From NCBI GenBank assembly GCA_965601925.1, contig OZ271854.1, forward strand, positions 1,120,001 through 1,184,000: 64,000 bases of DNA. The letters are read 5' to 3'. The position numbers and the translations under genes were made by a program. This document shows positions 6,282 to 19,858 of the stretch, one piece after another. The first letter of the stretch is position 1. Each line of letters opens with the position of its first letter. The notes under the pieces are model-generated. The model was not told the origin of the DNA, searched no databases, and worked only from the letters and a program-made list of their open reading frames with translations. The stretch is from Alkalispirochaeta sp. Lineage in GTDB: Bacteria > Spirochaetota > Spirochaetia > DSM-27196 > Alkalispirochaetaceae.

Positions 6282-8390
6282 TTATAACTGTCGCGCCTCG
6301 AGGTACCCAAAGTGCGTCCGCGACGGCGAAAGCTGCGCGAACCCATACATCCCGTAGGGGTGCGGTTCCGTATCGGTCCAGGTGAGGCGTTCGCTCCCGT
6401 CTATCGAGAGCGTGAGAGTCGATCCAACGGCGGTAATCTCGATATCATACGTCTCGCCGTGGCGCCAGGCGAACGGCTTCGACGCGACCTCACGGTAGCC
6501 GTTTTCGTTTTTGAGGATCGCCACGCGACCTTCGCCCGAAAGGCCTCCGGCGTACCCCAGACGCGTCCCTCGGGCGCGAAACACGACCAGATGCGACGAG
6601 CCGTTGTGCGGTTGTACGCGCGAACGAATATGCACGTCCGAGGTATAGTAGTTGCCCGTATAGAGCGAGCCGGTGTCGGCGGTAAATGCATGGACGCCTC
6701 CGTCTTCCAACGTCCATGCGCCTCCGCTCGTCGTACACTGAGTGATTTCACCGAACTCGACGGTCTGTTTTGAGAAATCGAGGCGATGTAGGCCGGTACC
6801 GCCTATTCTCACCGAGTCGAGGTAGAGTTTGCCCACTACCCGCGGTTCTTCGCGGTTCTCGATGATGACGCCGATCTCGTCGATAGCGGCGTCCACCGCC
6901 GAAATCGTCCAACTCCGGCGACGCCACTCGCCCGGTTCCGCGAAAAAAGAGGGCCCCTCAATGAGCTCCTTGGTATCGGTTCGACGAATATAGAACGCAA
7001 GCGCGGGATTCTCTCCTTCCCACGGCTCCCAGTAGTAATCGAGAGAGATTGTTTGTCCCTCGTAGATCAGCGGGGAAAAGGCGGGCAGATAGCGATCGTC
7101 CGAAAAATCGTCCCGTCGATAGAACGGTTTGACGTACACTCGGTCGCGCCCCGATCGCGGCATGCCGTCGACAAGAACCTCAAGTGCGCCGTCGCTCCCC
7201 TCGGTGGTCACCTCGCGTTGGTGTCGTAACCGCAAGAAGAGGTCTCCCGCACCACGGAAGCCGTGGGTCGACCCGGGAAGGTCGAAATCGAAGAAGAGAT
7301 CCTTGGGCGAACCGGTTATCGTCGCGGCGGCGGCGCTCGGAGCGGGAACCTCACCGGCCAGACGGTAACCGAGGATCGCGAGCTCTCGGGAAAAGCGCGG
7401 AAGATCGATCATATTGAGGGAGCCGGCGACGCTGCTACCGACAAAGAGATCGTTGATCGGTTCGCGATACCGCTGATCGACACCCCTCAACCCGCCCGCG
7501 ACACCGATGATCGTGCCGACATTGCCGGCATTACAATCGGTGTCCCAGCCGCACATCGTCGCGATCTCTACCGTGCGGGAAAGCGCACCCCGGCCGTAGA
7601 GCAGCGCGAGCACGCAGACTCCGGCGTTCGGAATGATATGACACGCGCCGGGATAGCGATCGTAGCCGAACTCCTGCGCAAGATACTCACGACACGAACG
7701 GAACTCCTCGGGATGGTCGGCATGAAATCGAACGACGGCGTCGACGACGCGGGCATACTCGCTCTCATCGGGTACGAATCGGCGCGACCCGGCCACGATT
7801 CTCGCCGGGTCGCTCTCTTCGAAGGCGATTGCGATCGCCGCGGCGATGAACCGAGCGCCGTACACACCGTTGCCGTCGTGCGAAACACTCGCCGCGGTCT
7901 CGGCAAGCTCGGCCGCCTGTCGGGGATCCCGAGGACTAACCAACCCCCAACAGTCGACGAAGATCTGCCCGCCGATCTGCTCGGCGACCGCCGCGCCGTT
8001 GTGTCGCATCGATCCCGAGTGCGGTGCGGTGATTCCTCGGGTAAGATTGACGTAGGCGGTGTGCTCGGTGCTCACACCGAAGCCGCCCCACCAGAAAAAC
8101 CCCTTGCCGTCGCGCGTATAATTGAGCCAAGCGTTTCCGACGTCTTCGCTCGTCACGGGGCGATCCGACGCCGAGTCGATCACGGAGCGCACGAAGAAGA
8201 CCGGGCCGTTCACGTCATCGTCCGCCGCAAAGGTGCGATAATCCTTCAGGTAGCCGTTGATCTCGCCGTATGCGTTTCGAATACGATCGTAGGTCCAGGC
8301 GATCGGCTCCACCGGTGCGCCGAGACGTACGCCGATACACTTCCCGAGCACCCCCGCGTATATCCGCTCCACATAATCGGTTTGAATCAT
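6282..8390 (-). CDS. ADP-ribosylglycohydrolase family protein with C-terminal beta-sandwich domains
   Basis: YAGVLGKCIGVRLGAPVE, ADDD, GWDTDCNAGNVG motifs; about 330 aa beta-rich C-terminal extension. Confidence 0.88.
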   Translation of the reverse strand: MIQTDYVERIYAGVLGKCIGVRLGAPVEPIAWTYDRIRNAYGEINGYLKDYRTFAADDDVNGPVFFVRSVIDSASDRPVTSEDVGNAWLNYTRDGKGFFWWGGFGVSTEHTAYVNLTRGITAPHSGSMRHNGAAVAEQIGGQIFVDCWGLVSPRDPRQAAELAETAASVSHDGNGVYGARFIAAAIAIAFEESDPARIVAGSRRFVPDESEYARVVDAVVRFHADHPEEFRSCREYLAQEFGYDRYPGACHIIPNAGVCVLALLYGRGALSRTVEIATMCGWDTDCNAGNVGTIIGVAGGLRGVDQRYREPINDLFVGSSVAGSLNMIDLPRFSRELAILGYRLAGEVPAPSAAAATITGSPKDLFFDFDLPGSTHGFRGAGDLFLRLRHQREVTTEGSDGALEVLVDGMPRSGRDRVYVKPFYRRDDFSDDRYLPAFSPLIYEGQTISLDYYWEPWEGENPALAFYIRRTDTKELIEGPSFFAEPGEWRRRSWTISAVDAAIDEIGVIIENREEPRVVGKLYLDSVRIGGTGLHRLDFSKQTVEFGEITQCTTSGGAWTLEDGGVHAFTADTGSLYTGNYYTSDVHIRSRVQPHNGSSHLVVFRARGTRLGYAGGLSGEGRVAILKNENGYREVASKPFAWRHGETYDIEITAVGSTLTLSIDGSERLTWTDTEPHPYGMYGFAQLSPSRTHFGYLEARQL

Positions 8391-8556
8391 GATCTTCAAG
8401 CTACCATATCATAGGACAACGTGCAGCGATCGACCGAACCGTCGAGGACGTTCAGACCGACCCGGACGCATCTGGATGCGTTCCTCAGGGCGTCGCCCCT
8501 CCGGTACGCATCCGCGCCGAGCAACAGCCGAAGGCTGTGACCAGCCCCGATATTGC

Positions 8557-8587
8557 GGCTCTTGCAAAATTGCATTTTACAAGAGCC
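8557..8587. repeat. 31-bp imperfect inverted repeat in divergent intergenic region
   Basis: GGCTCTTG-C-AAAAT-TGC-ATTTT-A-CAAGAGCC. Confidence 0.75.
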
Positions 8588-8636
8588 TCTCCAAAAAACG
8601 TTAGTAAAACCGACGAGAGTGCGTATCATATTGTGT

Positions 8637-9959
8637 ATGTTAAAACGAATTTGGCGGGGTTACGCTACCAGCGGGTACGGGGAGGCGCTGCCTCTCGGCG
8701 AACTGGAGAAAGTCATGTTCGTCAACACGTTTTCTATTATCGGAAACGTGAGCCTTCTGGCCTTTAGCGGATTTCACGCGCTTCGGAGCAACTACCTCTT
8801 CGCCGTCATCGAGCTCTCTTTTTTTGCGATCGGGCTGCTCAACATCATTGCATTACGCAAAACACGCAATGCGGATCTCGCAAGCTCGATCATTCTTTTT
8901 TTCATGATTGGAGTACTTGTGTTTCTCTACGCTACGGGAGGTACCGGAAACACGGGATTTCTGTGGTACTTCACCTACCCGCTACTGGCCTTTTTCCTCA
9001 AAGGAAAGAAACACGGAACTTTGTGGCTCCTCGCATTGGTCGGCACTACCCTCATGGTGTTTCTACTGCAGCGTACGGGTGTCGTGCCGTTTCAGGCGTA
9101 CTCAACGTTGGAGACGGCGGTGCTGACCATCACGATCCTCGTCGTCGCCTCACTGACGGCCTTCTACGCCAACGTACAAGACAGACTCGAGGAAGTGAGG
9201 GCGATGCGCGAGGGCGAGCGCTTGCAGGCCCGAATAATGGAGAGTCAGCTCGATGTGGCAAGAGGATTCCAACGGGTACTCCTGCCCGCCCAAGACATCG
9301 CCTATGAGGACGTATCCGTGTCGGCAGCGTATCGGACCGTGGGGAAGGTGGGGGGAGACTATTTCGATTTTGTGCCCATCGACGAGAATCGCATTGCCGT
9401 CATCCTGTGCGATGTGTCGGGTCACGGTGTACCCGCCGCGCTTGGGATGGTGAACATCAGAGCGATATTCCGCACACTACTGAAAAAAGATGTGCGGTCG
9501 CCGGCACAGATCATGAGAGAAATCAACAACACACTTGTCGGTGAACTGCAGGATGACTACTTCATAACTTCCTTTTTCTTCATATATGACAGAGAGCGTC
9601 GAGAGGTTATCTACTGCAATGCCGGACAGCCGCCCGCAATCCACTACTCCGACGGCACGCTATCGGAAATCACGTCCGTGGCGCTGCCGCTCGGCGTTAC
9701 GCCGGAGAATCCGTATCGTGACAAAACGATGGCGCTCCGGCGCGGCGATCTTTTCATCATCTATACCGACGGAATCGTGGAGGCGATGAACGAAGCCCGC
9801 GACGCATACGGACCGAAGCGGCTGTTTCGTACGATAGCAAAGAGCCGCCACCAAACTGCAACCCAGATTAACGAAGCCGTCATCGACGATGTAGATGTCT
9901 TCCTCAACGACCATCGAATGAGCGACGACATTTCGATCGTGACTCTCAAGGTGGAGTAG
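8637..9959 (+). CDS. Membrane-bound SpoIIE/PP2C-family (RsbU-like) phosphatase
   Basis: About 6 N-terminal TM helices; VGGDYFD, DVSGHGVPAA, YTDGIVEA, DDISIV motifs. Confidence 0.92.
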   Translation: MLKRIWRGYATSGYGEALPLGELEKVMFVNTFSIIGNVSLLAFSGFHALRSNYLFAVIELSFFAIGLLNIIALRKTRNADLASSIILFFMIGVLVFLYATGGTGNTGFLWYFTYPLLAFFLKGKKHGTLWLLALVGTTLMVFLLQRTGVVPFQAYSTLETAVLTITILVVASLTAFYANVQDRLEEVRAMREGERLQARIMESQLDVARGFQRVLLPAQDIAYEDVSVSAAYRTVGKVGGDYFDFVPIDENRIAVILCDVSGHGVPAALGMVNIRAIFRTLLKKDVRSPAQIMREINNTLVGELQDDYFITSFFFIYDRERREVIYCNAGQPPAIHYSDGTLSEITSVALPLGVTPENPYRDKTMALRRGDLFIIYTDGIVEAMNEARDAYGPKRLFRTIAKSRHQTATQINEAVIDDVDVFLNDHRMSDDISIVTLKVE

Positions 9960-10236: not shown

Positions 10237-10280
10237 TTCAACAATTAATTATTGATAAACAGTAATTATTATGATACATT
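10237..10280 (+). promoter_or_regulatory. Sigma70-type promoter with operator-like AT-rich motif overlapping the -35
   Basis: TTGATA(10252-57)-17bp-TACATT(10275-80) with TGn extension; ATTAATTATTGATAAACA resembles the motif at 13184-13213. Confidence 0.7.
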
Positions 10281-10329: not shown

Positions 10330-12237
10330 GTGAAACGAATCTATACGAAGACACTGTTGCTACTCGCTCTAGGAGGCTCGCTCTTCGGTGCGCCGCGAGA
10401 GATAGATGAAATCCTAAGGCCCCTTCGCCGGCGATATGACATGCCCGGTGTCGCGGCCGCCGTCGTGGTCGGCGACCGGATTGTCGCGTCGGGGGCCGTG
10501 GGAGTTCGAAAAGAGGGCAGCGGAGTTTCGGTCACCGTCGACGACGCGTGGCAAATAGGCTCCTGCGTCAAGTCGATGACCGCCACGGTCGCCGGGCGCC
10601 TTGTCGAACGGGGCGTCATTCGGTGGGAGACGACGCTTTTTGAGAGCTTCGGGCACCTCGTCGACCTCCATCCGGACTACGTCGACGTCACCCTGGATCA
10701 GCTTCTCTCCCATTCCGCCGGCGTGCCCGACGACCCGACCCTGGAGCAGGACCAGGAGGGTGACCCCTACGACGAGTTGGTCCTTTCCGGAATCCCGCTG
10801 ACCGAGCAGCGATTCCTCTTTGCCCGGAATGTGTTGTCCCGGCCCCCTCAGGCGACACCCGGTACCAAGATGATCTACTCGAATGCGGGCTATATCATCG
10901 CCGGCGCCATGCTGGAAGGGGCTACCGGCAAGAGTTGGGAGGCGCTGATGGAGGAGGAGCTCTTCGAACCCCTCGGCATGCACTCCGCCGGATTCGGCGC
11001 ACCGGCGACTCCGGGGCGCGTCGACGGACCGTGGGCACACGGACCGTGGAACGGGCCGATCGACCCGAGGGAGAACCTTTTCGATCAGGCGCTCATCATC
11101 GGCCCCGCAGGCCACGTCCACTGCTCCATCGAGGACTTCGCGCGCTACGCCACGGTACACCTGCACGGCGAACCTCGAGCGACCAACGGCGGAGAGTACC
11201 TTACGCCGGAGACCTTCCGAAAGCTTCACGCCGCCATGATAGAGGTCTCGAGACTCACCGGAACCGACTACGCTCTCGGGTGGGGCAACGGGGAGCACCG
11301 GGAGCTGGGGCCCTATTTGATACACACCGGAAGTAACGGCGTCTTCTACGCCGCTATGGTGCTTCTACCGGAGCGCAACGGTGCGATCGTCGCCGCAACG
11401 AACAGCCTGCGCGAAGAGGGAGTTCACCGCGCCATATTTGAGCTGGGTCGTGAGTACCTGGAGGAGCCTGTCGACATTCTTCCGGTCCAACCGACTTGGT
11501 CGTTGACCGTCGGCGCCGGCGGCGGCCTCGGTCCGACCTATGCCGGCGCCGGTGAGACGGGTGTAGACTTCCTCCCGCTCCTGGATCTGGAGTACCGTCG
11601 CCACCGTTTCGGCGCCTTCGTCGGTTTGACACACGGGCTCGGTGTCACCTTCAGAGAGGAGCGGCTTGCCGGACTCGAGATCGCCGTCGGTGTCGATCTT
11701 GTCGAGGGACGCGACCCCAACGAGGCCCCCACAAAGGAGCTCTTGGAGGGTACCCCGACCCTCGAAAGCAACGGTGAGCTCTTCGCCTCGGTGGGATTTA
11801 CCTTCGAGCTCTTTGCACTCTCTTCGACCGTTAGCCTCGCAACAATCGACGCCGACTACGACGAAGCGGATCGCCGGGACGCGCGATACGACAGCGTCTG
11901 CGTCGATTTCGATGTGACGACCGCTCTTCCCTTTACCGAGAGCCTCTTTTTGACTGCGGCTCTCGGCACGACCTGGATGAACGGCGACCATGCAGAGGCG
12001 TTGTACGGGGTGCTCTACACCACCGATAGGCTTGACCTCTTCGACGCCGACGGGGGATTTGAGACGATCCACGGCAGCTTGGGACTCGTCTCTCTCTTTA
12101 CTCCACGCCTCGGTTTGGTCGTGGAGGCGGAGTTTACGTACCCCCTCGACAGCGCAGCCGACAGCCCGATCACGGAGCGGCCGTTCTACCCCGGGATCGG
12201 CGCCACCCTCTTCTACCAATGGAGGTCCCGTGGATAG
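10330..12237 (+). CDS. Secreted beta-lactamase-fold serine hydrolase fused to a C-terminal MipA/OmpV-like outer-membrane barrel
   Basis: Signal peptide; SxxK (GSCVKS), LLSHSAG, YSN and HTG motifs; from about WSLTVGAGGGLGPTYAGA onward, alternating beta-strands typical of MipA/OmpV. Confidence 0.82.
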   Translation: MKRIYTKTLLLLALGGSLFGAPREIDEILRPLRRRYDMPGVAAAVVVGDRIVASGAVGVRKEGSGVSVTVDDAWQIGSCVKSMTATVAGRLVERGVIRWETTLFESFGHLVDLHPDYVDVTLDQLLSHSAGVPDDPTLEQDQEGDPYDELVLSGIPLTEQRFLFARNVLSRPPQATPGTKMIYSNAGYIIAGAMLEGATGKSWEALMEEELFEPLGMHSAGFGAPATPGRVDGPWAHGPWNGPIDPRENLFDQALIIGPAGHVHCSIEDFARYATVHLHGEPRATNGGEYLTPETFRKLHAAMIEVSRLTGTDYALGWGNGEHRELGPYLIHTGSNGVFYAAMVLLPERNGAIVAATNSLREEGVHRAIFELGREYLEEPVDILPVQPTWSLTVGAGGGLGPTYAGAGETGVDFLPLLDLEYRRHRFGAFVGLTHGLGVTFREERLAGLEIAVGVDLVEGRDPNEAPTKELLEGTPTLESNGELFASVGFTFELFALSSTVSLATIDADYDEADRRDARYDSVCVDFDVTTALPFTESLFLTAALGTTWMNGDHAEALYGVLYTTDRLDLFDADGGFETIHGSLGLVSLFTPRLGLVVEAEFTYPLDSAADSPITERPFYPGIGATLFYQWRSRG

Positions 12238-13207
12238 GAGAGTGCGAGGGGACGTCCTGGAAACGATCCTGAAGCTGCTTGTCCTAACGGCTTTGCTTGT
12301 CGCTCCGCCGCTACTCCTAACCGCCGAAGCGGAACCGGAGGGAGCGCATAGCTGGTCGTTAAGCGCACGGCGCGGTGTCACTCTTGTCGCCGCCGCGGCG
12401 TGGGCGCTGGTCGTGAGACGCCGATCGGTCCGTCGTGCCACATATCTCGCGGTCATGGGCGGGGCGGCCCTCGTATTTCTTACGACGAGTGAGGAGCTCT
12501 TCGGCCGGAGACTCTTTGCCGTGCCGGCCGCACGTTCCATCGACCACCTGCTCATTGGCGGCGGGTTGTTGACCGCTACGATCGGACTACTGCTCGCCCT
12601 TCGGGAGCTACGCGGCGCCGTCGAGGGACTCACCGAACGCGCGGACGAGTATCGCAGGCAGAGTATCACCGACAACTTGACCGGCCTCTACAACGGCCGC
12701 TACCTCTTTCAAATAATCAACGGCGAGGTACGGCGCGCCGAGCGATATCGCAGGGCGCTCTCGCTCCTTCTCGTAGACATCGACGATTTCAAATCGTTCA
12801 ACGACACCTACGGCCACCTCGCGGGGGATCGATTATTGGAGGCCGCCGGCGCGGTACTCCAAGGCGCGTGCCGAGCAAACGATATGGCCTTTCGGCTGGG
12901 CGGCGAAGAGTTCATCATTCTGCTGCCGGAAACCACGCTCCGCGAGGCTTCGGTGATCGCCGACCGTGTGCGAAAGGTGATGGAAGGGGTATCGCTCACT
13001 CTCCCGAGCGGCGAGGTCGTCGGGCGGACGGCAAGCGTCGGGGCCTCCACCCTGGGAGAGGCGATACGATCGGCCGACGACCTCATTGCCCAGGCGGACT
13101 CGGCGATGTATCGGGCAAAGGCCATGGGTAAGAATCGCGTCTCCACGGCCGGGTCTATCAATATACGAAACGACGGAAAATACTGTTTATCATTAATTAA
13201 TGATTGA
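12230..13207 (+). CDS. Membrane-anchored diguanylate cyclase (GGDEF)
   Basis: About 4 TM; TDNLTGLYN, DIDDFKSFNDTYGHLAGD, RxxD I-site (RAND), GGEEF; GTG after GGAGG overlapping upstream stop. Confidence 0.92.
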   Translation: MDRRVRGDVLETILKLLVLTALLVAPPLLLTAEAEPEGAHSWSLSARRGVTLVAAAAWALVVRRRSVRRATYLAVMGGAALVFLTTSEELFGRRLFAVPAARSIDHLLIGGGLLTATIGLLLALRELRGAVEGLTERADEYRRQSITDNLTGLYNGRYLFQIINGEVRRAERYRRALSLLLVDIDDFKSFNDTYGHLAGDRLLEAAGAVLQGACRANDMAFRLGGEEFIILLPETTLREASVIADRVRKVMEGVSLTLPSGEVVGRTASVGASTLGEAIRSADDLIAQADSAMYRAKAMGKNRVSTAGSINIRNDGKYCLSLIND

Positions 13208-13232
13208 TAAACAACAACATACATGCTATGGT
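13184..13232 (+). promoter_or_regulatory. Palindromic operator plus sigma70 promoter of the DUF2975-HTH operon
   Basis: TGTTTATCA-N12-TGATAAACA inverted repeat overlapping the perfect palindrome ATCATTAATTAATGAT; TTGATA(13204-09)-17bp-TATGGT(13227-32) with TGn extension. Confidence 0.8.
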
Positions 13233-13262: not shown

Positions 13263-13796
13263 ATGAGCAACATTGAAAGAATTCAAAAAATGAGTCGCGT
13301 ATTTAAGTACTTCTTCCTCGCCCTCTTTGGTCTGTTGCCGCTTTTGGCCCTCGCGTTCTGGCTCTTTTATAACGCGTTGCCCGGACCGCTGAAGGGCGCC
13401 GGCGCCCTTGAGGTCGCGGACCACCTTTCATTCAGGCTGCGCGCCCTGGGATTCGTCGCCACCTCCCTCGATATGGGCATCGGCATGGCGACACTCTGGA
13501 CCCTCATGCGCCTCTTCGCCCTCTATGAGGAGGGTCGAATCTTTACCTCGTCGAACGTCACGCTCTATCGTAGGCTCGGCTGGCTCCTCATACTCGGTGT
13601 CGGCAGCAACGTTCTCACCATCGCTCTCTACACACTTATCGTAACGACGCCCGATCCCCAGGGCCTGAGCGCGATCGAGGCGGCCTTCGGCTCCATCGAC
13701 GTCGCGGCCCTCGTTATCGGATTGATCGTTCTGCTGATCTCGGCGGTGATGAAGGTGGGCGCCGAGCTCCAAGAGGACCGGGACCTCACGGTCTAA
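13263..13796 (+). CDS. DUF2975 (YoaS-like) membrane protein
   Basis: 4 TM; LF--YEEG-IFT--NV and C-terminal G-ELQED-DLTV; GGAGGAG RBS. Confidence 0.9.
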   Translation: MSNIERIQKMSRVFKYFFLALFGLLPLLALAFWLFYNALPGPLKGAGALEVADHLSFRLRALGFVATSLDMGIGMATLWTLMRLFALYEEGRIFTSSNVTLYRRLGWLLILGVGSNVLTIALYTLIVTTPDPQGLSAIEAAFGSIDVAALVIGLIVLLISAVMKVGAELQEDRDLTV

Positions 13797-13806
13797 CGGG
13801 GTTGTC

Positions 13807-14046
13807 ATGGCAATAGTAGTCAATTTGGACGTGATGTTGGCCAAGCGAAAGATGAAGTCCAACCGGCTTGCCGAGTTGGTCGGCATCACCGAACAGAACC
13901 TCTCCATCCTCAAGACGGGAAAGGCTCGGGCGATTCGTTTCTCCACCCTGGAGGCGATATGCCGCCACCTGGAGTGCCAGCCCGGGGACATCCTGGAGTA
14001 CCGGCGGGAGAGCGACGAATCGGCGGACGATACAGGAGCACCGTAA
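13807..14046 (+). CDS. XRE/Cro-CI HTH regulator, YozG family
   Basis: MAIVVNLDVMLAKRKM...NLSILKTGKARAIRFSTLEAIC--L-CQPGDILEY. Confidence 0.95.
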   Translation: MAIVVNLDVMLAKRKMKSNRLAELVGITEQNLSILKTGKARAIRFSTLEAICRHLECQPGDILEYRRESDESADDTGAP

Positions 14047-14047
14047 C

Positions 14048-14737
14048 ATGGCTGTTATCGAGTTGAATGGAGTAACCAAGGACTACCCTCTTGGCGACAC
14101 CACCGTCCACGCCCTGAAGGGTGTAGATCTCTCCATTGAGGCGGGGGAGTTTCTCTCCGTCGTCGGACCCTCGGGCAGCGGGAAGACGACGCTGCTTAAT
14201 ATCATCGGGTGCATCGACCGTGCGACCTCCGGTAACGTCGCTATTCACGGGACCGATGTCACTACGATGAGCGACCGGGACCTCACCGACCTCAGGCTTC
14301 GCCGCATCGGCTTCATCTTCCAGACCTTCAATCTCATCCCGGTGCTCTCCCTCGTGGAGAACGTCGAGTTTCCCCTCCTTCTCATGAAGGGGGAGCGTTT
14401 ATCAAAGCGGGAGATCAGGCGGCGGGCCGAGGAGCTGATCGAGGAGGTCGGCCTGGCGGAGCAGCAAAAGCAGCGTCCGCACGAGCTCTCAGGCGGTCAG
14501 CGCCAGAGGGTCGCCATCGCCCGAGCGCTCGTTACCAAGCCGGACATCGTTCTTGCCGACGAGCCGACGGCAAACCTCGACTCCGCCACCGGGGAGCGCA
14601 TCCTCAAGCTCATGAAGCGTCTCAACGAGCGGGAGCGGACCACCTTTCTCTTCTCCACACACGACCCTGAGGTACTGCGGTACGCCGGTCACGTACTCGG
14701 GGTGCGGGACGGTCTCTTAACGCAAGGGGCCGCGTGA
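14048..14737 (+). CDS. ABC ATP-binding protein (LolD/MacB-like)
   Basis: GPSGSGKTT, IGFIFQTFNL, LSGGQRQRVAIARAL, ADEPTANLDS. Confidence 0.94.
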   Translation: MAVIELNGVTKDYPLGDTTVHALKGVDLSIEAGEFLSVVGPSGSGKTTLLNIIGCIDRATSGNVAIHGTDVTTMSDRDLTDLRLRRIGFIFQTFNLIPVLSLVENVEFPLLLMKGERLSKREIRRRAEELIEEVGLAEQQKQRPHELSGGQRQRVAIARALVTKPDIVLADEPTANLDSATGERILKLMKRLNERERTTFLFSTHDPEVLRYAGHVLGVRDGLLTQGAA

Positions 14738-16311
14738 TGTTGACGCTCAAGCTGGCTACCCGGAACCTCCTGCGCCATCGGGGACGGAGCCTCGTGATCG
14801 GATCCATCCTCTTCTTGGGCGCTCTCCTCATGATCGTTGGGAGCAGCGTTGTGGCCGGCGCTCGGGTCGGGCTGGAAGAGAACGTGGTGGAGCGCTTCAC
14901 CGGCCACCTCGTACTGGTATCGCCGCATCAGCGAGAGAGGAGCGTCTTCTTCTCCGAACGGACCCTCCGGATGATTCCCGACTATCCCGCAGTCGCACAG
15001 GTGCTCGGCGGCCTCGACTTCTTGGAGGGCTATCTGCCGATGATGCGGGGAACGGCCCTCGTCTTAAGCGAAAACAGCCCCACCGAACCGATACTCGCCT
15101 TCGGTGTCAACTTCCAGGACTACCAAGAACGCTTCGGTCACAACGTCGTCGCCATAGAGGGTCGGCTTCTGGAAAACGGTGAACGGGGCTTCCTCCTCTC
15201 CGAGGCGACGCGGCAAAGAATTCTCGAGAACCACAACGTCTGGATGGCGCCCGAGGGGGCGACTTCGGTGGTGCACGGCAGCGACGATGCTTCAGTACCG
15301 ACGGCGACGACACTCGGGGAGCGTGCCGGGACAGACCGCATTCCCCGCGGCCCGTCGGCGCCGGGCGGTGCAATCCCGGTTGTCAACGAGCTGGTGCTGA
15401 TGGGGCTCTCCAGCGACTCCCTGGAATCGGATATCCGGCTAACGGTTACCGGCATCGTGCGTTTCGAACGAATGGACACCCTCTGGGAAGGGGTCAGCTT
15501 CATGGATATCGAGTCCTACCGCGAGTGCTTCGGCCACGTGACCGCCGCCGCCCGGTCGATGGAGCTTACCGATACTCAGACGACGCTTCTCGGGGCCGCC
15601 GCGCCGGAGGATCTCTTCGGCGGAAGTCTCATTATGGAGAGTCCGGCCACGGCGGAGGAGTACAGGGAGGGCGCATTGCGCGCTCAGACGGAGCGCAGCG
15701 ACCGGCCTCTCGATCTGGACGACGGCGCCTGGGGGCTGATATCGGTACGCCTCCGAGAGGGACTCTCTGTGGAGGAGGGGCGGGCGCTCCTCAGGGAACG
15801 GCTTAATCGAGCAGGTATCGATCTCCAGGTGCTGCCATGGAGCGACGCGGCCGAAGAGGTAGCGCGTTTCGCCCTCATCACCCAGAACGCTCTTTCGGCC
15901 TTCATCTTCTGCCTCTTCCTCGTGGCGGCAATCGTTATCATGAACACCCTCTCCATGGCTGCTGCGGAGCGTACGACCGAGATCGGTACCATCCGGGCGA
16001 TCGGTGGAAGAAGGGGGTTTGTCGGCCGACTCTTCCTCGCCGAGACCTCCCTGCTCGCCGCGCTCTTCGGTGGCGGCGGCATGGTCGTCGGTTCGGTCCT
16101 CATGCTGATCCTCGCCCGTCTCGGCATCGACACCACCACGACGCCGATGACGACCCTCCTCTTCGGCGGCGACACCTTTCGACCCGTCGTGGGCGGCGAT
16201 CAGTTGGCCGCGGGAGCGCTCAGGCTGGCATTGGTCACGATCGTCGCCATGATCTATCCGGTCGTGCTGGCCCGGCGCGTCACGCCTTTGGACGCCGTTG
16301 CACGAGATTAG
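14734..16311 (+). CDS. FtsX/LolE-type ABC permease
   Basis: LATRNLLRH--RS, large periplasmic domain, ERTTEIGTIRAIG, 4-TM topology. Confidence 0.9.
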   Translation: MMLTLKLATRNLLRHRGRSLVIGSILFLGALLMIVGSSVVAGARVGLEENVVERFTGHLVLVSPHQRERSVFFSERTLRMIPDYPAVAQVLGGLDFLEGYLPMMRGTALVLSENSPTEPILAFGVNFQDYQERFGHNVVAIEGRLLENGERGFLLSEATRQRILENHNVWMAPEGATSVVHGSDDASVPTATTLGERAGTDRIPRGPSAPGGAIPVVNELVLMGLSSDSLESDIRLTVTGIVRFERMDTLWEGVSFMDIESYRECFGHVTAAARSMELTDTQTTLLGAAAPEDLFGGSLIMESPATAEEYREGALRAQTERSDRPLDLDDGAWGLISVRLREGLSVEEGRALLRERLNRAGIDLQVLPWSDAAEEVARFALITQNALSAFIFCLFLVAAIVIMNTLSMAAAERTTEIGTIRAIGGRRGFVGRLFLAETSLLAALFGGGGMVVGSVLMLILARLGIDTTTTPMTTLLFGGDTFRPVVGGDQLAAGALRLALVTIVAMIYPVVLARRVTPLDAVARD

Positions 16312-16320
16312 GAGCGAGCT

Positions 16321-17655
16321 ATGAATCCGGTATCGACCATTGGGCTACGAAATCTGACACGACAGAAACGACGCAACCTCTTTCTCGGCGCCGGCATCGC
16401 CATCGGGATGGCACTGCTCGTCCTCTCCGGAGCCTTTACCCGCGGTATCTCGGACATCCTCCTCAACCGTATCGTGGTCAAGATCGCCGGCCATCTGGTG
16501 ATCTCATCCGTCGAACGGTCCGAGGGGAGAGAGGATCTCGCCATCCTGCGGAATAGAACCGAGATCGAACGGATCGCGCGCTTCTCCCTATACAATGTGC
16601 GGGAGGTTCGGGAACAAATCCTCCTCTCCGGCCGTGCCTTGGGCAACGGCCGCGCCGAGTCGGTGGCAATCGTCGGTACGGACCCCTTCGGCAGCCTCAT
16701 CCGGGAGGCGGAGGTGGTGGAGGGAAGCGTCGATCAGATGGCGAGTGCTACCTGGGAGAACCCGGTTGTGCTCTACGAAGAGATGGCCGAGGATCTGGCG
16801 GTCGGCCTCTTGGACGTGATCCGCGTACGCTTCTCCACAGTCTACGGCCAGGCCCAGACCGCACGGTTCACCGTCGTTGCCGTTATCGAATCGACCAACC
16901 CTTTCTTGGACCTGGCGATCTACGCGCCCATAGACGTTCTGCGCCCCTTGGCGGGCTTCGAGGCCGACGAGACCCAGGCGCTGAGCGTCGTCCTGGATCG
17001 CGTCCGCCATCCGCGGGAGGTCTCGGCCGCGGCCGATCGTATCCACTCCGCTCTGAGCCGCCACCCGGAGGAGTCCGTCGGTCGGCTTCTCGAGCGTACC
17101 GCCACACCGGAGGAGTTAGCGCAGAAACATCGCAGTCTCGACGGTTCCGCGTGGCGGGGCAGAGTGACCGACGTCAACTCCATTTACGAGATCGCCGGGG
17201 AGCTGCTCCAGATCGAACGAGTCTTGGACAGAGTCTCCTTGGTCGCGGTCGGCCTGCTCCTCGTCATCGTGCTTATCGGCGTGGTGAACACCCTACGTAT
17301 GACCATCCGTGAACGGACCCGGGAGATCGGCACACTGCGGGCGATCGGGATGCAGCGGGCCGACCTGCTGCGGAGCTTTGTTGTCGAGATCCTGGCCCTC
17401 ACGCTTGTTGCGGGAGTCGCCGGAGCGATAGCCGCCCATCTCGCTATGGCCCTCCTCGGGCGTATCGCGGTGGCTGCAGCCGAAAGCACCTTATCGGTCT
17501 TTCTGGTTGACGACCGTCTTCACTTCGTGCCGACGGCCTCGGACATCGTAAAGAACCTCGCGATCGTTGTAGTCGCCTGCTTTCCCGCGGCCTATTTCCC
17601 GGCCCGGCGCGCCGCGCGACTCTCGGTGACCGCAGCCTTGGGCCACCACGAATAA
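16321..17655 (+). CDS. FtsX/LolC-E-type ABC permease
   Basis: RNLTRQKRR, ERTREIGTLRAIGM, PARRAARL motifs. Confidence 0.9.
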   Translation: MNPVSTIGLRNLTRQKRRNLFLGAGIAIGMALLVLSGAFTRGISDILLNRIVVKIAGHLVISSVERSEGREDLAILRNRTEIERIARFSLYNVREVREQILLSGRALGNGRAESVAIVGTDPFGSLIREAEVVEGSVDQMASATWENPVVLYEEMAEDLAVGLLDVIRVRFSTVYGQAQTARFTVVAVIESTNPFLDLAIYAPIDVLRPLAGFEADETQALSVVLDRVRHPREVSAAADRIHSALSRHPEESVGRLLERTATPEELAQKHRSLDGSAWRGRVTDVNSIYEIAGELLQIERVLDRVSLVAVGLLLVIVLIGVVNTLRMTIRERTREIGTLRAIGMQRADLLRSFVVEILALTLVAGVAGAIAAHLAMALLGRIAVAAAESTLSVFLVDDRLHFVPTASDIVKNLAIVVVACFPAAYFPARRAARLSVTAALGHHE

Positions 17656-17665
17656 GGAGATATCA

Positions 17666-18463
17666 ATGAAGAAAACACCTTTGAACGCACTCATTCGAGT
17701 ACTGTCGCTTCTCGCCGCCCTCGGCGGCGTCGCGGTGAACCGCGTCGACGCCGATCCGTCCGTCAACGACATCTTGAGTCGCATGGACCGGCAGTACGAC
17801 ATCCGAAGCGACCTGACGGTTCGGATGAGCCTCACCGAACAGAGGCCCGAGGAGGGTGTCCGGCTCTTCGAGGGCATCTACTACCGCCGAGACAGCGACG
17901 ACGCCTTTCTGCTGGTGATGGTTGAACCCGAGGCGGAGCGGGGCAACGGCTACCTCAGGGTCGGCGAGAATATGTGGCTCTACCGGCGAAACACCCGCAC
18001 CTTTCAGATCATGCACCGCGATCAGGCGATCGGCGGCACCGGCGCCAACGCCGAGGATTTCGAGAAGCGCAAGATGACCGAGCTCTACGAGCCGATTCTC
18101 GACGACTCGGGAGGGGAGCTTATCCGAGAGGAGACCCTCGGCCGGGCGCAGATTCCCGTCTACCGCCTCGAGATCCGGGCGTCGGTACGCGACGTCGAGT
18201 ACCCGCGACTCGTTCTCTGGGTACGAAGAGACAACTTCCTTCTCCTCAAGGAGGAGGCCTACTCCCTCTCGGGCACCCTCATGGAGACGAGTTATTACCC
18301 GCGCTACACCGAAGTGGAGGGGAGTTATATCCCCCTTCAGATGGTCTTCGTCGACGAGTTCGACGTGGGTGAACGGACCGTCGTAGAGCTCTCCGGAGTC
18401 TCTCTCGAAGCGATTGACGACGCGGTCTTTACCACCGCCTACCTCGAGAGCCTGAGCAAGTAG
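17666..18463 (+). CDS. Outer-membrane lipoprotein-sorting protein (LolA-like)
   Basis: Signal peptide; P--ERG-GYL---NMWLY, G-GANAEDF, YP---LWV----F-----EAY--SG. Confidence 0.85.
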   Translation: MKKTPLNALIRVLSLLAALGGVAVNRVDADPSVNDILSRMDRQYDIRSDLTVRMSLTEQRPEEGVRLFEGIYYRRDSDDAFLLVMVEPEAERGNGYLRVGENMWLYRRNTRTFQIMHRDQAIGGTGANAEDFEKRKMTELYEPILDDSGGELIREETLGRAQIPVYRLEIRASVRDVEYPRLVLWVRRDNFLLLKEEAYSLSGTLMETSYYPRYTEVEGSYIPLQMVFVDEFDVGERTVVELSGVSLEAIDDAVFTTAYLESLSK

Positions 18464-19858
18464 GTGAGAGGGATGGAGAGAGCGCAAAGGGTCGCACCGG
18501 TATGGGCTTTGTGGATCCTCTGGACCCCCATCATCATCTCGGCCCAGGAGATCTCCTTCGATGAGGATGAGCTCTTCTCCGAGCCTGGGAGCACCGTAGA
18601 GCTGGAAGAACAACCGGTACGGGAGATCACCGAAGCGTTGCGGGAGGAGTCGATCTCCTTCTCCGGTGGGATCTCCGCGGCGACCGGGATGGATCTTACC
18701 CGAAAAGCGGTCGACGGCTCCGAGAACCTCGCCCAAAGCCCCTACTCGGCGACGGTGGAGTGGGACCTCCTTTTGGATATTCGTACCGGCGGCGACACAA
18801 AGGCGTTTGCCGACCTGCTGGTCCTCTCGACGCCGATACGTGACGGCGCTGCAGGGTCCGACGGCACGGGAGACGGCTCAGACGCCGATGCGCCGTCCGT
18901 CGTGAGTACCTCGGCCGAAAGCTTCGAGTTGGACCTGCGGGAGGCCTTCGTCGACCTAAACATCGCTCGCCGAGTCTTTTTCAAGTTCGGCAAGCAGACC
19001 CTGAAATGGGGACCGGCCTACTTCTGGAACCCGACCGACCTTGTCAGCGAAGATCGCCGAGAGCTTACCGACTTGGACGGGCGGCGGGAGGGAACATTCG
19101 GACTCAAGGCGCACATACCCTTCGGTACACGGTTTAACCTCTTTGGATTTATCAATGCCGACGGCGCCGAGGAAGTCGGTGAGATCGCCTTGGCAGGTAG
19201 AGCCCAGCTCCTCATTGCCCAACGGGTGGAAGCGGGTCTCTCGGGCTGGTACCGGGAACGTTCACTGCCGGTCTACGGCCTCGATCTTCGTACTCGCCTG
19301 CGGGAGATCGATCTCTGGGGGGAGATGAGCCTCTCCTATGGGGACAACCGCCCGCGTCTCGAGGTCGGCGAGGAGGATGTTATGGGGACACCGACTCCCA
19401 TCTTCGATGAGCGACGGGTGCGAGAAGAGTGGGTCTCCCGGGCGAGTGTCGGTATCGGTCGCAGCTTCGATATCGGTGATGTCAACGACCGCCTCCGCCT
19501 TATCGGGGAGTTCTTCTACAACGGAGGGGGATACACCGAGGATCTCTTCGAAGATGAAGCGACCCGCCTGGCGTTCCTTGGCGGCGACTTCTACGAGCCC
19601 GGATTCTACGGCCGGTACTACGTAGGGCTCTTCTCCGGCTATCGTAGGTTTTTCCACCCCGATATGACGCTCGTCTTCAACGGGGTCGGTAACCTTACCG
19701 ACCGCTCCTTCGCCCTCTCGGCCGGCATCGACTACGAGATCGTCGCAAACGCCTCGGTAGGCCTGCGCGTCGACGGCTATTTGGGAGAGGAGAACCGGGA
19801 GTATACGGCGGCAGGGAGCGTGGCGAGGGTTACCGCCACGGTCAATCTCTCGTACTAA
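18464..19858 (+). CDS. Putative outer-membrane beta-barrel protein
   Basis: Signal-like N-terminus; LREAFVD---GKQ---WG-AYFWNPTD motif; amphipathic C-terminal strand RVTATVNLSY. Start may be ATG 18473. Confidence 0.72.
   Translation: MRGMERAQRVAPVWALWILWTPIIISAQEISFDEDELFSEPGSTVELEEQPVREITEALREESISFSGGISAATGMDLTRKAVDGSENLAQSPYSATVEWDLLLDIRTGGDTKAFADLLVLSTPIRDGAAGSDGTGDGSDADAPSVVSTSAESFELDLREAFVDLNIARRVFFKFGKQTLKWGPAYFWNPTDLVSEDRRELTDLDGRREGTFGLKAHIPFGTRFNLFGFINADGAEEVGEIALAGRAQLLIAQRVEAGLSGWYRERSLPVYGLDLRTRLREIDLWGEMSLSYGDNRPRLEVGEEDVMGTPTPIFDERRVREEWVSRASVGIGRSFDIGDVNDRLRLIGEFFYNGGGYTEDLFEDEATRLAFLGGDFYEPGFYGRYYVGLFSGYRRFFHPDMTLVFNGVGNLTDRSFALSAGIDYEIVANASVGLRVDGYLGEENREYTAAGSVARVTATVNLSY

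What the first reader, a model, noticed from the sequence alone, without database searches (positions are those of the whole stretch)
10330..12237. Beta-lactamase-fold serine hydrolase fused to a MipA/OmpV-like outer-membrane barrel
Seen: one uninterrupted 635-codon ORF with a signal peptide, an intact SxxK/YSN/HTG serine-hydrolase domain, and about 245 aa of barrel-type sequence starting WSLTVGAGGGLGPTYAG. Known: MipA/OmpV barrels are usually stand-alone. From memory, Pseudomonas aeruginosa encodes a beta-lactamase-like MipB and a MipA barrel as separate partners linked to polymyxin sensing. Inference: this is a fusion that tethers an apparently catalytically competent hydrolase to an OM barrel. 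It could capture and cleave an antimicrobial or peptide substrate, or display the enzyme in autotransporter fashion.
Basis: partly seen in the sequence, partly recalled or inferred. Interest (0 to 1): 0.85.

Follow-up and report, generated by a model that had tools for sequence, protein, structure and literature searches.

The report
Serine hydrolase fused to MipA barrel
A spirochaete joins an intact peptide-cutting type of enzyme to an outer-membrane barrel of a family known to bind antimicrobial peptides, under an unstudied repressor whose unfused version of the same module rides beside the colistin-resistance gene mcr-8, which hints at an untested capture-and-cleave envelope defence.

Summary
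Window 10330-12237 is one 635-aa gene: signal peptide, S12 serine hydrolase with intact S78-x-x-K81/Y183-S-N/H332-T-G, a 12-residue linker, and a complete MipA/OmpV domain that models as a 12-stranded barrel (pLDDT 95). Two assembled contigs of the same sample span it unbroken, and one independent full-length fusion exists (P0003, 41% identical). It is rare: no further full-length copy was found. Barrel topology and the lack of a pore helix place the enzyme in the periplasm, so autotransporter display is unlikely. It lacks the class C beta-lactamase KTG motif.

New here: the promoter holds the genome's best match to the operator of the YoaS(DUF2975)-YozG repressor pair encoded 1 kb past its end. 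The same parts occur unfused (mipA, intact S12 hydrolase, DUF2975, YozG, same operator) on mcr-8 plasmids, built from different subfamilies. Best reading: an inducible envelope module in which the barrel captures a membrane-active peptide or amide and the tethered enzyme cleaves it. Substrate, activity and domain packing are untested; the host lacks lipid A genes, so polymyxin is not the obvious ligand. It works like a fused, catalytically intact MipA-MipB but is not MipB.

The parts
10248..10266 (.). Predicted YozG-family operator (palindrome TTATTG-N5-CAGTAA), overlapping the -35 of the fusion's promoter
   Evidence: Rank 1 in the 5.05-Mb genome with a matrix built from other genomes, 26.2 bits; no equal site in 10 block shuffles; near-identical 21-mer at only two other places, both before DUF2975
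10252..10280 (+). Sigma-70-like promoter (TTGATA-17-TACATT, TG before the -10)
   Evidence: Consensus scan, 9 of 12 matches; 5 such sites found against 1.7 expected in the region. Not evidence of function
10330..10392 (+). Putative Sec signal peptide, residues 1-20/21, no lipobox
   Evidence: Read from the sequence; P0003 also begins with a signal-like stretch
10402..11457 (+). S12 / PF00144 serine hydrolase domain, residues 25-376; S78 at 10561, K81 at 10570, Y183 at 10876, H332 at 11323
   Evidence: Pfam E 4e-56; motif conservation; fold matches Pab87, D-peptidases, SurE, ClbP, R61
11077..11091 (+). Fusion-specific loop LFDQA (residues 250-254) replacing the subfamily's ADNP
   Evidence: DQA in 2 of 406 ungapped rows, the two fusions; DNP in 308; aligns next to ClbP H257, which contacts substrate (PMC9889268, passages)
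11458..11493 (+). 12-residue linker (377-388), no helix, pLDDT under 50 at 380-386
   Evidence: Full-length model
11494..12225 (+). MipA/OmpV 12-stranded outer-membrane barrel, residues 389-632, with two short strands (427-432, 436-443)
   Evidence: Pfam E 1e-19; model pLDDT 95.1; best structural matches PcoB Z 15.2, KdgM Z 15.2, NalP Z 14.7, NanC Z 14.3
12242..13207 (+). Membrane-bound GGDEF diguanylate cyclase starting a few bases after the fusion's stop; probably co-transcribed (start codon uncertain)
   Evidence: Pfam GGDEF E 1e-42; spacing
13179..13218 (.). Two weaker operator copies (13179-13197, 13200-13218) overlapping the promoter of DUF2975
   Evidence: Ranks 10 and 7 in the genome; promoter-like site 13204-13232
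13263..13796 (+). DUF2975 (YoaS-like) membrane protein
   Evidence: Pfam E 1e-15
13807..14046 (+). YozG-like Cro/C1 HTH repressor, the only copy found in the genome
   Evidence: Pfam HTH_26 E 5e-24; 1 match in G000
14048..19858 (+). ABC ATPase, two FtsX/MacB permeases, LolA-like protein and a probable outer-membrane protein following YozG in the same direction
   Evidence: Pfam; co-regulation inferred from gene order only

Best explanation
An inducible envelope module in one polypeptide. Shown by computation: the protein has a signal peptide, an intact S12 active site and a whole MipA barrel. Inferred from topology: BAM inserts the barrel and the enzyme hangs from strand 1 on the periplasmic face. 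Inferred from the operator: YozG represses the gene, and the signal that DUF2975-YozG senses switches it on together with the cyclase and the ABC/LolA-like genes. Inferred from MipA/OmpV literature and gene context: the barrel is a binding pocket with a lateral opening that collects a membrane-partitioning peptide or amide (an antimicrobial lipopeptide or D-amino-acid peptide is the leading candidate) and hands it to the tethered serine enzyme, which cleaves it. My odds by step: periplasmic topology 0.8, YozG control 0.8, barrel and enzyme act on one substrate 0.6, that substrate is an antimicrobial 0.4.
For: Both domains whole and kept in a 41%-identical second fusion. Hydrolases of P0002, P0003 and fragment P0135 form one clade, 99/98, and both fusions share a loop change seen in no other row, so the fusion is old and specialised. 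12 strands, short turns on the N-terminal side, no pore helix. Operator rank 1 in the genome; only 2 of 40 column-shuffled matrices reach rank 1. Unfused operon mipA - intact S12 hydrolase (GSLSK/YSN/HDG) - orf - DUF2975 - YozG (59% identical to ours) with the same operator (26.2 bits) on mcr-8.2 plasmid NZ_CP147976.1; its hydrolase is only 27% identical and its barrel scores far below the fusion subclade, so the pairing arose separately. DUF2975, YozG and an S12 hydrolase are adjacent in 3 of 85 other YozG loci. P. aeruginosa MipA binds polymyxins and co-purifies with the beta-lactamase-fold MipB (PMC10936184); V. cholerae OmpV is modelled with a lateral gate and closed ends (PMC12012098).
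Against: No activity, ligand or expression data. Only two full-length fusions are known. MipA was beside 1 of 64 hydrolase loci (3.7 kb away), 0 of 80 metagenome hydrolase loci and 0 of 85 YozG loci, so the pairing is sporadic. This S12 subfamily fuses to many unrelated domains (lengths and Pfam labels), so one more fusion need not mean channelling. LpxC and LpxB were not found in the host. The barrel's acidity (D+E/K+R 2.5) is not kept in P0003 (1.3; host median 1.26). The linker is poorly predicted and I could not inspect where the active site faces. The mcr-8 plasmid copies are one element (64 of 65 records at least 99% identical) and may be passengers of mcr-8. What YoaS-YozG senses is not given in the papers I found.
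Confidence: 0.45

Rival explanations
1. Nutrient capture: the barrel is a small solute channel like KdgM, NanC or Tsx, and the periplasmic hydrolase releases a usable fragment from an imported amide, ester or short peptide.
For: Top structural matches are solute channels. Stand-alone spirochaete MipAs sit beside varied hydrolases: alpha/beta hydrolase lipoproteins, a GH32-like lipoprotein, an FAA-hydrolase, a GH78-like enzyme.
Against: No uptake system or catabolic genes flank the fusion; the neighbouring ABC is of the FtsX/MacB type. OmpV is modelled as closed at both ends (PMC12012098, passages). The 12-stranded matches are tied in Z and show shape only.
Confidence: 0.18
2. Cell-wall remodelling: the barrel anchors a DD-peptidase at the outer membrane, in the way E. 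coli MipA was proposed to scaffold MltA and PBP1B.
For: Best NCBIfam hit is AmpH, far below cut-off (55.9 of 266); R61 DD-peptidase and D-peptidases are among fold matches; HTG matches R61's third motif (recalled). The scaffold idea is cited in PMC10936184 and PMC12012098.
Against: Not found in 16 same-genus or 60 related genomes, so it is not a core wall enzyme; no peptidoglycan genes nearby; the subfamily has H-x-G-S-N with T at this place in only 21 of 183.
Confidence: 0.14
3. Sensor: as in MipA-MipB, ligand binding in the barrel moves the periplasmic domain, which signals to the adjacent diguanylate cyclase or DUF2975; catalysis only resets or generates the signal.
For: The cyclase gene starts a few bases after the stop; MipA genes often lie by regulators (PMC10936184 discussion; membrane LuxR/AraC genes).
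Against: MipB's barrel-binding C-terminal domains are absent and the active site is fully kept in both fusions; the cyclase's sensor part found no match in 85 YozG loci and the mcr-8 operon has no cyclase. P0003's neighbours could not be read.
Confidence: 0.13
4. Autotransporter-like display: the barrel exports the hydrolase to the cell surface, as in EstA or AaaA.
For: Same order (signal, enzyme, 12-stranded barrel) and size; NalP, AaaA and EstA barrels match at Z 14.2-14.7.
Against: No Autotransporter Pfam hit, full MipA hit instead. The helix before the linker is the hydrolase's own last helix, present in stand-alone relatives; the linker is 12 residues without helix. Engineered MipA display used C-terminal truncations, the opposite end (PMC9728377, abstract).
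Confidence: 0.07
5. Artefact or recent neutral read-through of two neighbouring genes.
For: Very rare; not found in close relatives.
Against: Contigs bridge the junction cleanly; a 41%-identical fusion has the same junction length and no inner signal peptide; shared derived motif and clade.
Confidence: 0.03

Closest known systems
P. aeruginosa MipA-MipB polymyxin co-sensor (PMC10936184; read: abstract, introduction, part of results, discussion)
   Same: MipA barrel paired with a beta-lactamase-fold periplasmic protein; 12 strands; inducible operon.
   Different: Here one chain; SxxK/YxN/HxG intact (MipB lacks SxxK); no lipobox; no C-terminal small barrels, which make MipB's contact with MipA; predicted YozG control, not ParRS; host without LpxC/LpxB hits.
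mipA - serine hydrolase - orf - DUF2975 - HTH operon on mcr-8 plasmids (NZ_CP147976.1; listed without comment in the Fig. 2 legend of PMC12708576, passage read)
   Same: Same four families, intact hydrolase motifs, same operator before the first gene.
   Different: Unfused, barrel first; hydrolase 27% identical and outside the fusion's subfamily; barrel outside the fusion's subclade; no study of its function found.
V. cholerae OmpV in carRS-ompV-virK (PMC12012098; passages)
   Same: MipA/OmpV barrel with two short strands giving a lateral opening; antimicrobial-peptide response.
   Different: Stand-alone, no hydrolase; short strands numbered 5-6 there and 3-4 in my model (correspondence not checked).
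S12 peptidases with an anchoring C-terminal domain: ClbP (inner-membrane helices; PMC9889268, passages), Pab87, SurE
   Same: S12 catalytic domain; in ClbP the membrane domain helps bind a lipid-soluble substrate, the closest mechanistic precedent.
   Different: Anchor is an outer-membrane barrel; ClbP's S188 is N185 here (the broad S12 residue), so no D-Asn prodrug specificity is implied; under 30% identity to any solved member.
Enzyme autotransporters EstA (3kvn) and AaaA (9oqa)
   Same: Signal peptide, enzyme, 12-stranded barrel, about 620 aa.
   Different: Different barrel family, no pore-spanning helix, predicted periplasmic rather than surface enzyme.
YoaS-YozG operon (bioRxiv 10.64898/2026.09.15.751765; passages)
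   Same: DUF2975 plus Cro/C1 repressor with AT-rich inverted repeats upstream.
   Different: That text describes putative autoregulation only; here a separate promoter, the fusion's, carries the best site.

Membership tests
MipA/OmpV (PF06629) | Profile match over the curated cut-off across the whole model | tested here: met
   72.1 bits against 24.2, positions 1-220 of 221; 30 of 30 Atlas hits are MipA clusters, score 0.95-0.96
MipA/OmpV (PF06629) | 12-stranded outer-membrane barrel ending in an aromatic last strand | tested here: met
   12 strands, pLDDT 95.1; ends LFYQWRSRG, P0003 ends LYNF; host has Omp85/BamA
MipA/OmpV (PF06629) | Lateral gate and electronegative lumen | tested here: inconclusive
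   Two short strands in the model; lumen charge only estimated from strand alternation, 10 acidic to 3 basic, but 8 to 6 in P0003; coordinates not available
S12 serine hydrolases (PF00144) | SxxK, YxN and third motif, beta-lactamase fold | tested here: met
S12 serine hydrolases (PF00144) | Hydrolytic activity | not testable with these tools
   Needs the purified protein
Class C beta-lactamase | KTG triad and NCBIfam cut-off | tested here: not met
   HTG at 332-334; bla_class_C 47 bits against 415
MipB | Lipobox, degenerate catalytic motifs, two C-terminal small barrels | tested here: not met
   No lipobox cysteine, motifs intact, only 12 residues between hydrolase and barrel against the description in PMC10936184
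Classical autotransporter (type Va) | Autotransporter barrel profile | tested here: not met
   Only two Pfam families hit at E up to 0.1
Classical autotransporter (type Va) | Linker helix running through the pore | tested here: not met
   No helix between residues 376 and 389 in the model; a model from a 43-row alignment, not a structure
YoaS-YozG regulon | Family operator over the promoter, with the repressor in the genome | tested here: met
YoaS-YozG regulon | Repressor binds and controls the promoter | not testable with these tools
   Needs binding and expression assays

The most novel reading that the evidence does not exclude
MipA/OmpV barrels are substrate-capture heads for periplasmic hydrolases, and this protein is the fused proof: a barrel that pulls a membrane-active peptide antibiotic out of the outer membrane through its lateral gate and feeds it to a tethered S12 peptidase. 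YoaS-YozG is the switch of this capture-and-cleave defence, and the unfused operon carried on mcr-8 plasmids is an overlooked peptide-inactivating module beside the known colistin-resistance gene.
Probability: 0.25. Interest if true: 0.88.

Novelty: new variant of a known kind. Interest (0 to 1): 0.62.

Why it matters
MipA/OmpV is widespread and has been called a wall scaffold, a porin and a polymyxin sensor; no solved member turned up in sequence or fold searches. A natural one-chain barrel-plus-active-enzyme gives a single purifiable protein in which barrel ligand and enzyme substrate can be tested together. It also names a first likely target outside its own operon for the widespread, unstudied YoaS-YozG pair, and it points at five unexplained genes on mcr-8 plasmids as one regulated unit. 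If the enzyme cleaves membrane-active peptides, that is a mode of envelope defence not described for this family in the papers I could search.

Tried and rejected
More fusions: the full-length search gave 684 hits, 120 listed, 2 with both domains (self, P0003). The barrel-region search among long proteins found only the query and missed P0003, so it is insensitive. The best 150 of a HMMER search of 1.84 billion representatives held no other fusion and did not list P0003 either. Pattern scans with the barrel alignment found nothing in genomes or metagenomes. MipA over cut-off in 12 of 401 phylum genomes and 9 of 99 order genomes, subclade profile in 8 of 401 class genomes: all stand-alone except this gene. 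The mcr-8-linked MipA found no match at E 1e-15 in 400 genomes of another class, without a positive control, so this shows nothing. Fragments P0135 (hydrolase, same clade) and P0122 (barrel, 41%) may be further fusions but are incomplete. ESM Atlas gave no usable hit for the whole protein. No RNA holder listed. Joint alignments A6, A8 and A9 misplaced barrel rows on the hydrolase and were dropped; A10 (43 rows, 6 stand-alone hydrolases) was used. The barrel tree is a quick tree: both fusions fall in a 12-row subclade (SH-aLRT 100) but are not resolved as sisters. Four other high-scoring operator-like sites in the genome lie before unrelated genes and were not followed up. Earlier findings of the scan: nothing relevant. 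Print: no description of this fusion in searches of the open-access library; domain-architecture databases could not be searched, and Fig. S8 of PMC10936184 (mipA neighbourhoods) was not seen and may bear on how often the pair occurs.

Full report
Observation. The ORF at 10330-12237 is open for 635 codons. Pfam places PF00144 at 25-370 and the whole MipA model at 394-630. The catalytic residues S78, K81, Y183 and H332 are intact and nearly invariant among 183 single-domain relatives. The third motif is HTG, and class C beta-lactamase models score 47 bits against a cut-off of 415, so this is an S12 peptidase/esterase-type enzyme, not an AmpC. Contigs from four runs of one sample show no indel at the junction; they may be the source of this DNA. 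P0003, from another assembly, has both domains and 41% identity over 98% of the length, which rules out an artefact.

Host and spread. The genome is one 5.05-Mb contig with three FlaA matches, which I read as a spirochaete (family assignment from knowledge). It has BamA-type genes; LpxC and LpxB were not found (completeness 96.7%). None of 60 related genomes gave a match spanning both domains, and the YozG gene was found in 0 of 21 same-family genomes, so the locus looks acquired. Every other MipA found in the phylum, order and class samples is stand-alone. The searches for more fusions were insensitive (both missed P0003), so two is a floor.

One origin, with a changed loop. The hydrolases of P0002, P0003 and the fragment P0135 form a clade at 99/98 in a 28-row tree whose bootstrap had not fully settled. 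Both fusions replace the subfamily's ADNP by LFDQA: DQA occurs in 2 of 406 ungapped rows, DNP in 308 (17 gapped rows set aside). This loop aligns beside ClbP H257, a substrate-contacting residue whose mutation had little effect on ClbP activity (PMC9889268, passages), so a change of specificity is an inference. The barrels fall in a distinct 12-row MipA subclade with spirochaete stand-alones, without resolving the two fusions as sisters (quick tree).

Structure and topology. The barrel alone models at pLDDT 95.1 with 12 strands. Short turns follow strands 2, 4, 6, 8 and 10, long loops follow 5, 9 and 11; by the usual outer-membrane rule (established knowledge) the N-terminus is periplasmic. 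Strands 3 and 4 are only 6 and 8 residues, resembling the lateral opening modelled for OmpV (PMC12012098, passages). Best matches are 12-stranded channels and autotransporter barrels, tied at Z 14-15; no MipA structure was found. The full-length model (pLDDT 86, pTM 0.75) has the hydrolase's own last helix at 362-376, then 12 residues without helix and with low confidence, then strand 1. There is no extra helix to fill a pore, so surface display is unlikely.

Regulation. A 21-bp AT-rich stretch at 10244-10264 recurs with at most four mismatches at only two other places in the genome, both in the promoter of DUF2975 (13263) and its Cro/C1 repressor (13807). From 80 YozG loci of other genomes, 66 had a usable upstream region; the top gapped palindrome was TATTG-N5-CAATA (14 of 66), and a matrix refined from a recalled seed scored 43 of 66 above 10. 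With it the fusion's site ranks first in the genome under two backgrounds, the DUF2975 sites 7th and 10th, and 10 block shuffles give no equal site. Of 40 column-shuffled matrices 2 also ranked it first (several columns are near-identical). The sites overlap predicted -35 elements, as expected of a repressor. A preprint notes such repeats before yoaS-yozG as putative autoregulatory operators (10.64898/2026.09.15.751765, passages).

The unfused counterpart. The Fig. 2 legend of PMC12708576 lists DUF2975, a serine hydrolase and MipA/OmpV side by side in an mcr-8.6 island. On plasmid NZ_CP147976.1 the order is mipA, S12 hydrolase, a small orf, DUF2975, HTH, then the mcr-8.2 cluster (the DUF2975 hit is under cut-off, E 4e-4, but other records annotate it so). 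The hydrolase has GSLSK, YSN and HDG, the HTH is 59% identical to ours, and the operator (26.2 bits, next best 9.1) lies 65 bp before mipA. 58 of 65 matching plasmid records hold most of this stretch, nearly all at least 99% identical: one element, not many events. Its hydrolase is 27% identical to ours and its barrel scores low on the subclade profile, so the same parts were assembled separately. DUF2975, YozG and an S12 hydrolase without MipA are adjacent in 3 of 85 loci, two of them related spirochaetes; a subclade MipA shares an operon with DUF2975 in G004. Among 12 stand-alone subclade barrels whose neighbours I looked at, 5 are followed directly by a CPBP/Rce1 membrane protease; 3 were truncated or unresolved, and these genomes are kin. 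PMC10936184 adds Pseudomonas mipBA and a shorter serine hydrolase beside mipA in Achromobacter.

Against. The pairing is sporadic: MipA lay near 1 of 64 and 0 of 80 hydrolase loci and 0 of 85 YozG loci. The hydrolase subfamily fuses readily to other domains. Barrel acidity is high here (2.5 against a host median of 1.26) but ordinary in P0003 (1.3), and the host appears to lack lipid A, so the polymyxin precedent should not be carried over literally. No expression or activity data exist.

Verdict. A real, rare, old fusion; a periplasm-facing S12 enzyme on a MipA barrel, very probably under YoaS-YozG control. It works like a fused and catalytically intact MipA-MipB but fails MipB, class C beta-lactamase and autotransporter membership. 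Capture-and-cleave of a membrane-active peptide or amide is the best reading (0.45), ahead of nutrient capture (0.18), wall remodelling (0.14), sensing (0.13) and display (0.07). I found no description of the fusion or of this regulon in the literature searches made. New variant of a known kind; interest 0.62.

Noticed in passing
L006:8359-14455 (G000:C1 about 622-628 kb): Two stand-alone MipA genes flank an alpha/beta-hydrolase lipoprotein; divergently lie a membrane AraC regulator and a PF00144 hydrolase with inserted membrane segments. G017 has a similar AraC / MipA / alpha/beta-hydrolase set (L066).
   Followed up: partly
L007:8221-11042 (G000:C1 about 2.13 Mb); also L067, L068, L069, L254: Recurrent spirochaete cassette: membrane LuxR regulator, subclade MipA, CPBP/Rce1 protease (the regulator is missing in some copies).
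   Followed up: partly
L352:7594-10748 (NZ_CP147976.1): Five-gene mipA - hydrolase - orf - DUF2975 - YozG operon with a strong family operator on mcr-8 plasmids; no functional study found.
   Followed up: yes
L352:3904-6343: A second serine hydrolase gene upstream, annotated as two pieces around IS903B.
   Followed up: no
window 14048-19858: ABC ATPase, two long FtsX/MacB permeases, LolA-like protein and a 464-aa probable outer-membrane protein without a Pfam hit over cut-off; apparently downstream of the YozG operator.
   Followed up: partly
window 8553-9959: SpoIIE-type phosphatase with a MASE6 membrane sensor directly upstream of the fusion; lower G+C (0.53) than its neighbours (0.61-0.63).
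   Followed up: no
window 6282-8399 (-): 705-aa ADP-ribosylglycohydrolase-family protein with a long C-terminal lectin-like region.
   Followed up: no
L335:1-1619; L267:5457-7662; L269:5546-7751: DUF2975, YozG and an S12 hydrolase in one operon in Myroides and in two spirochaetes; the Myroides enzyme is close to the fusion's subfamily (E 3.5e-63).
   Followed up: partly
G000:C1:2172111-2172473: A PF00144 match with one TGA inside, possibly a broken or split hydrolase gene.
   Followed up: no
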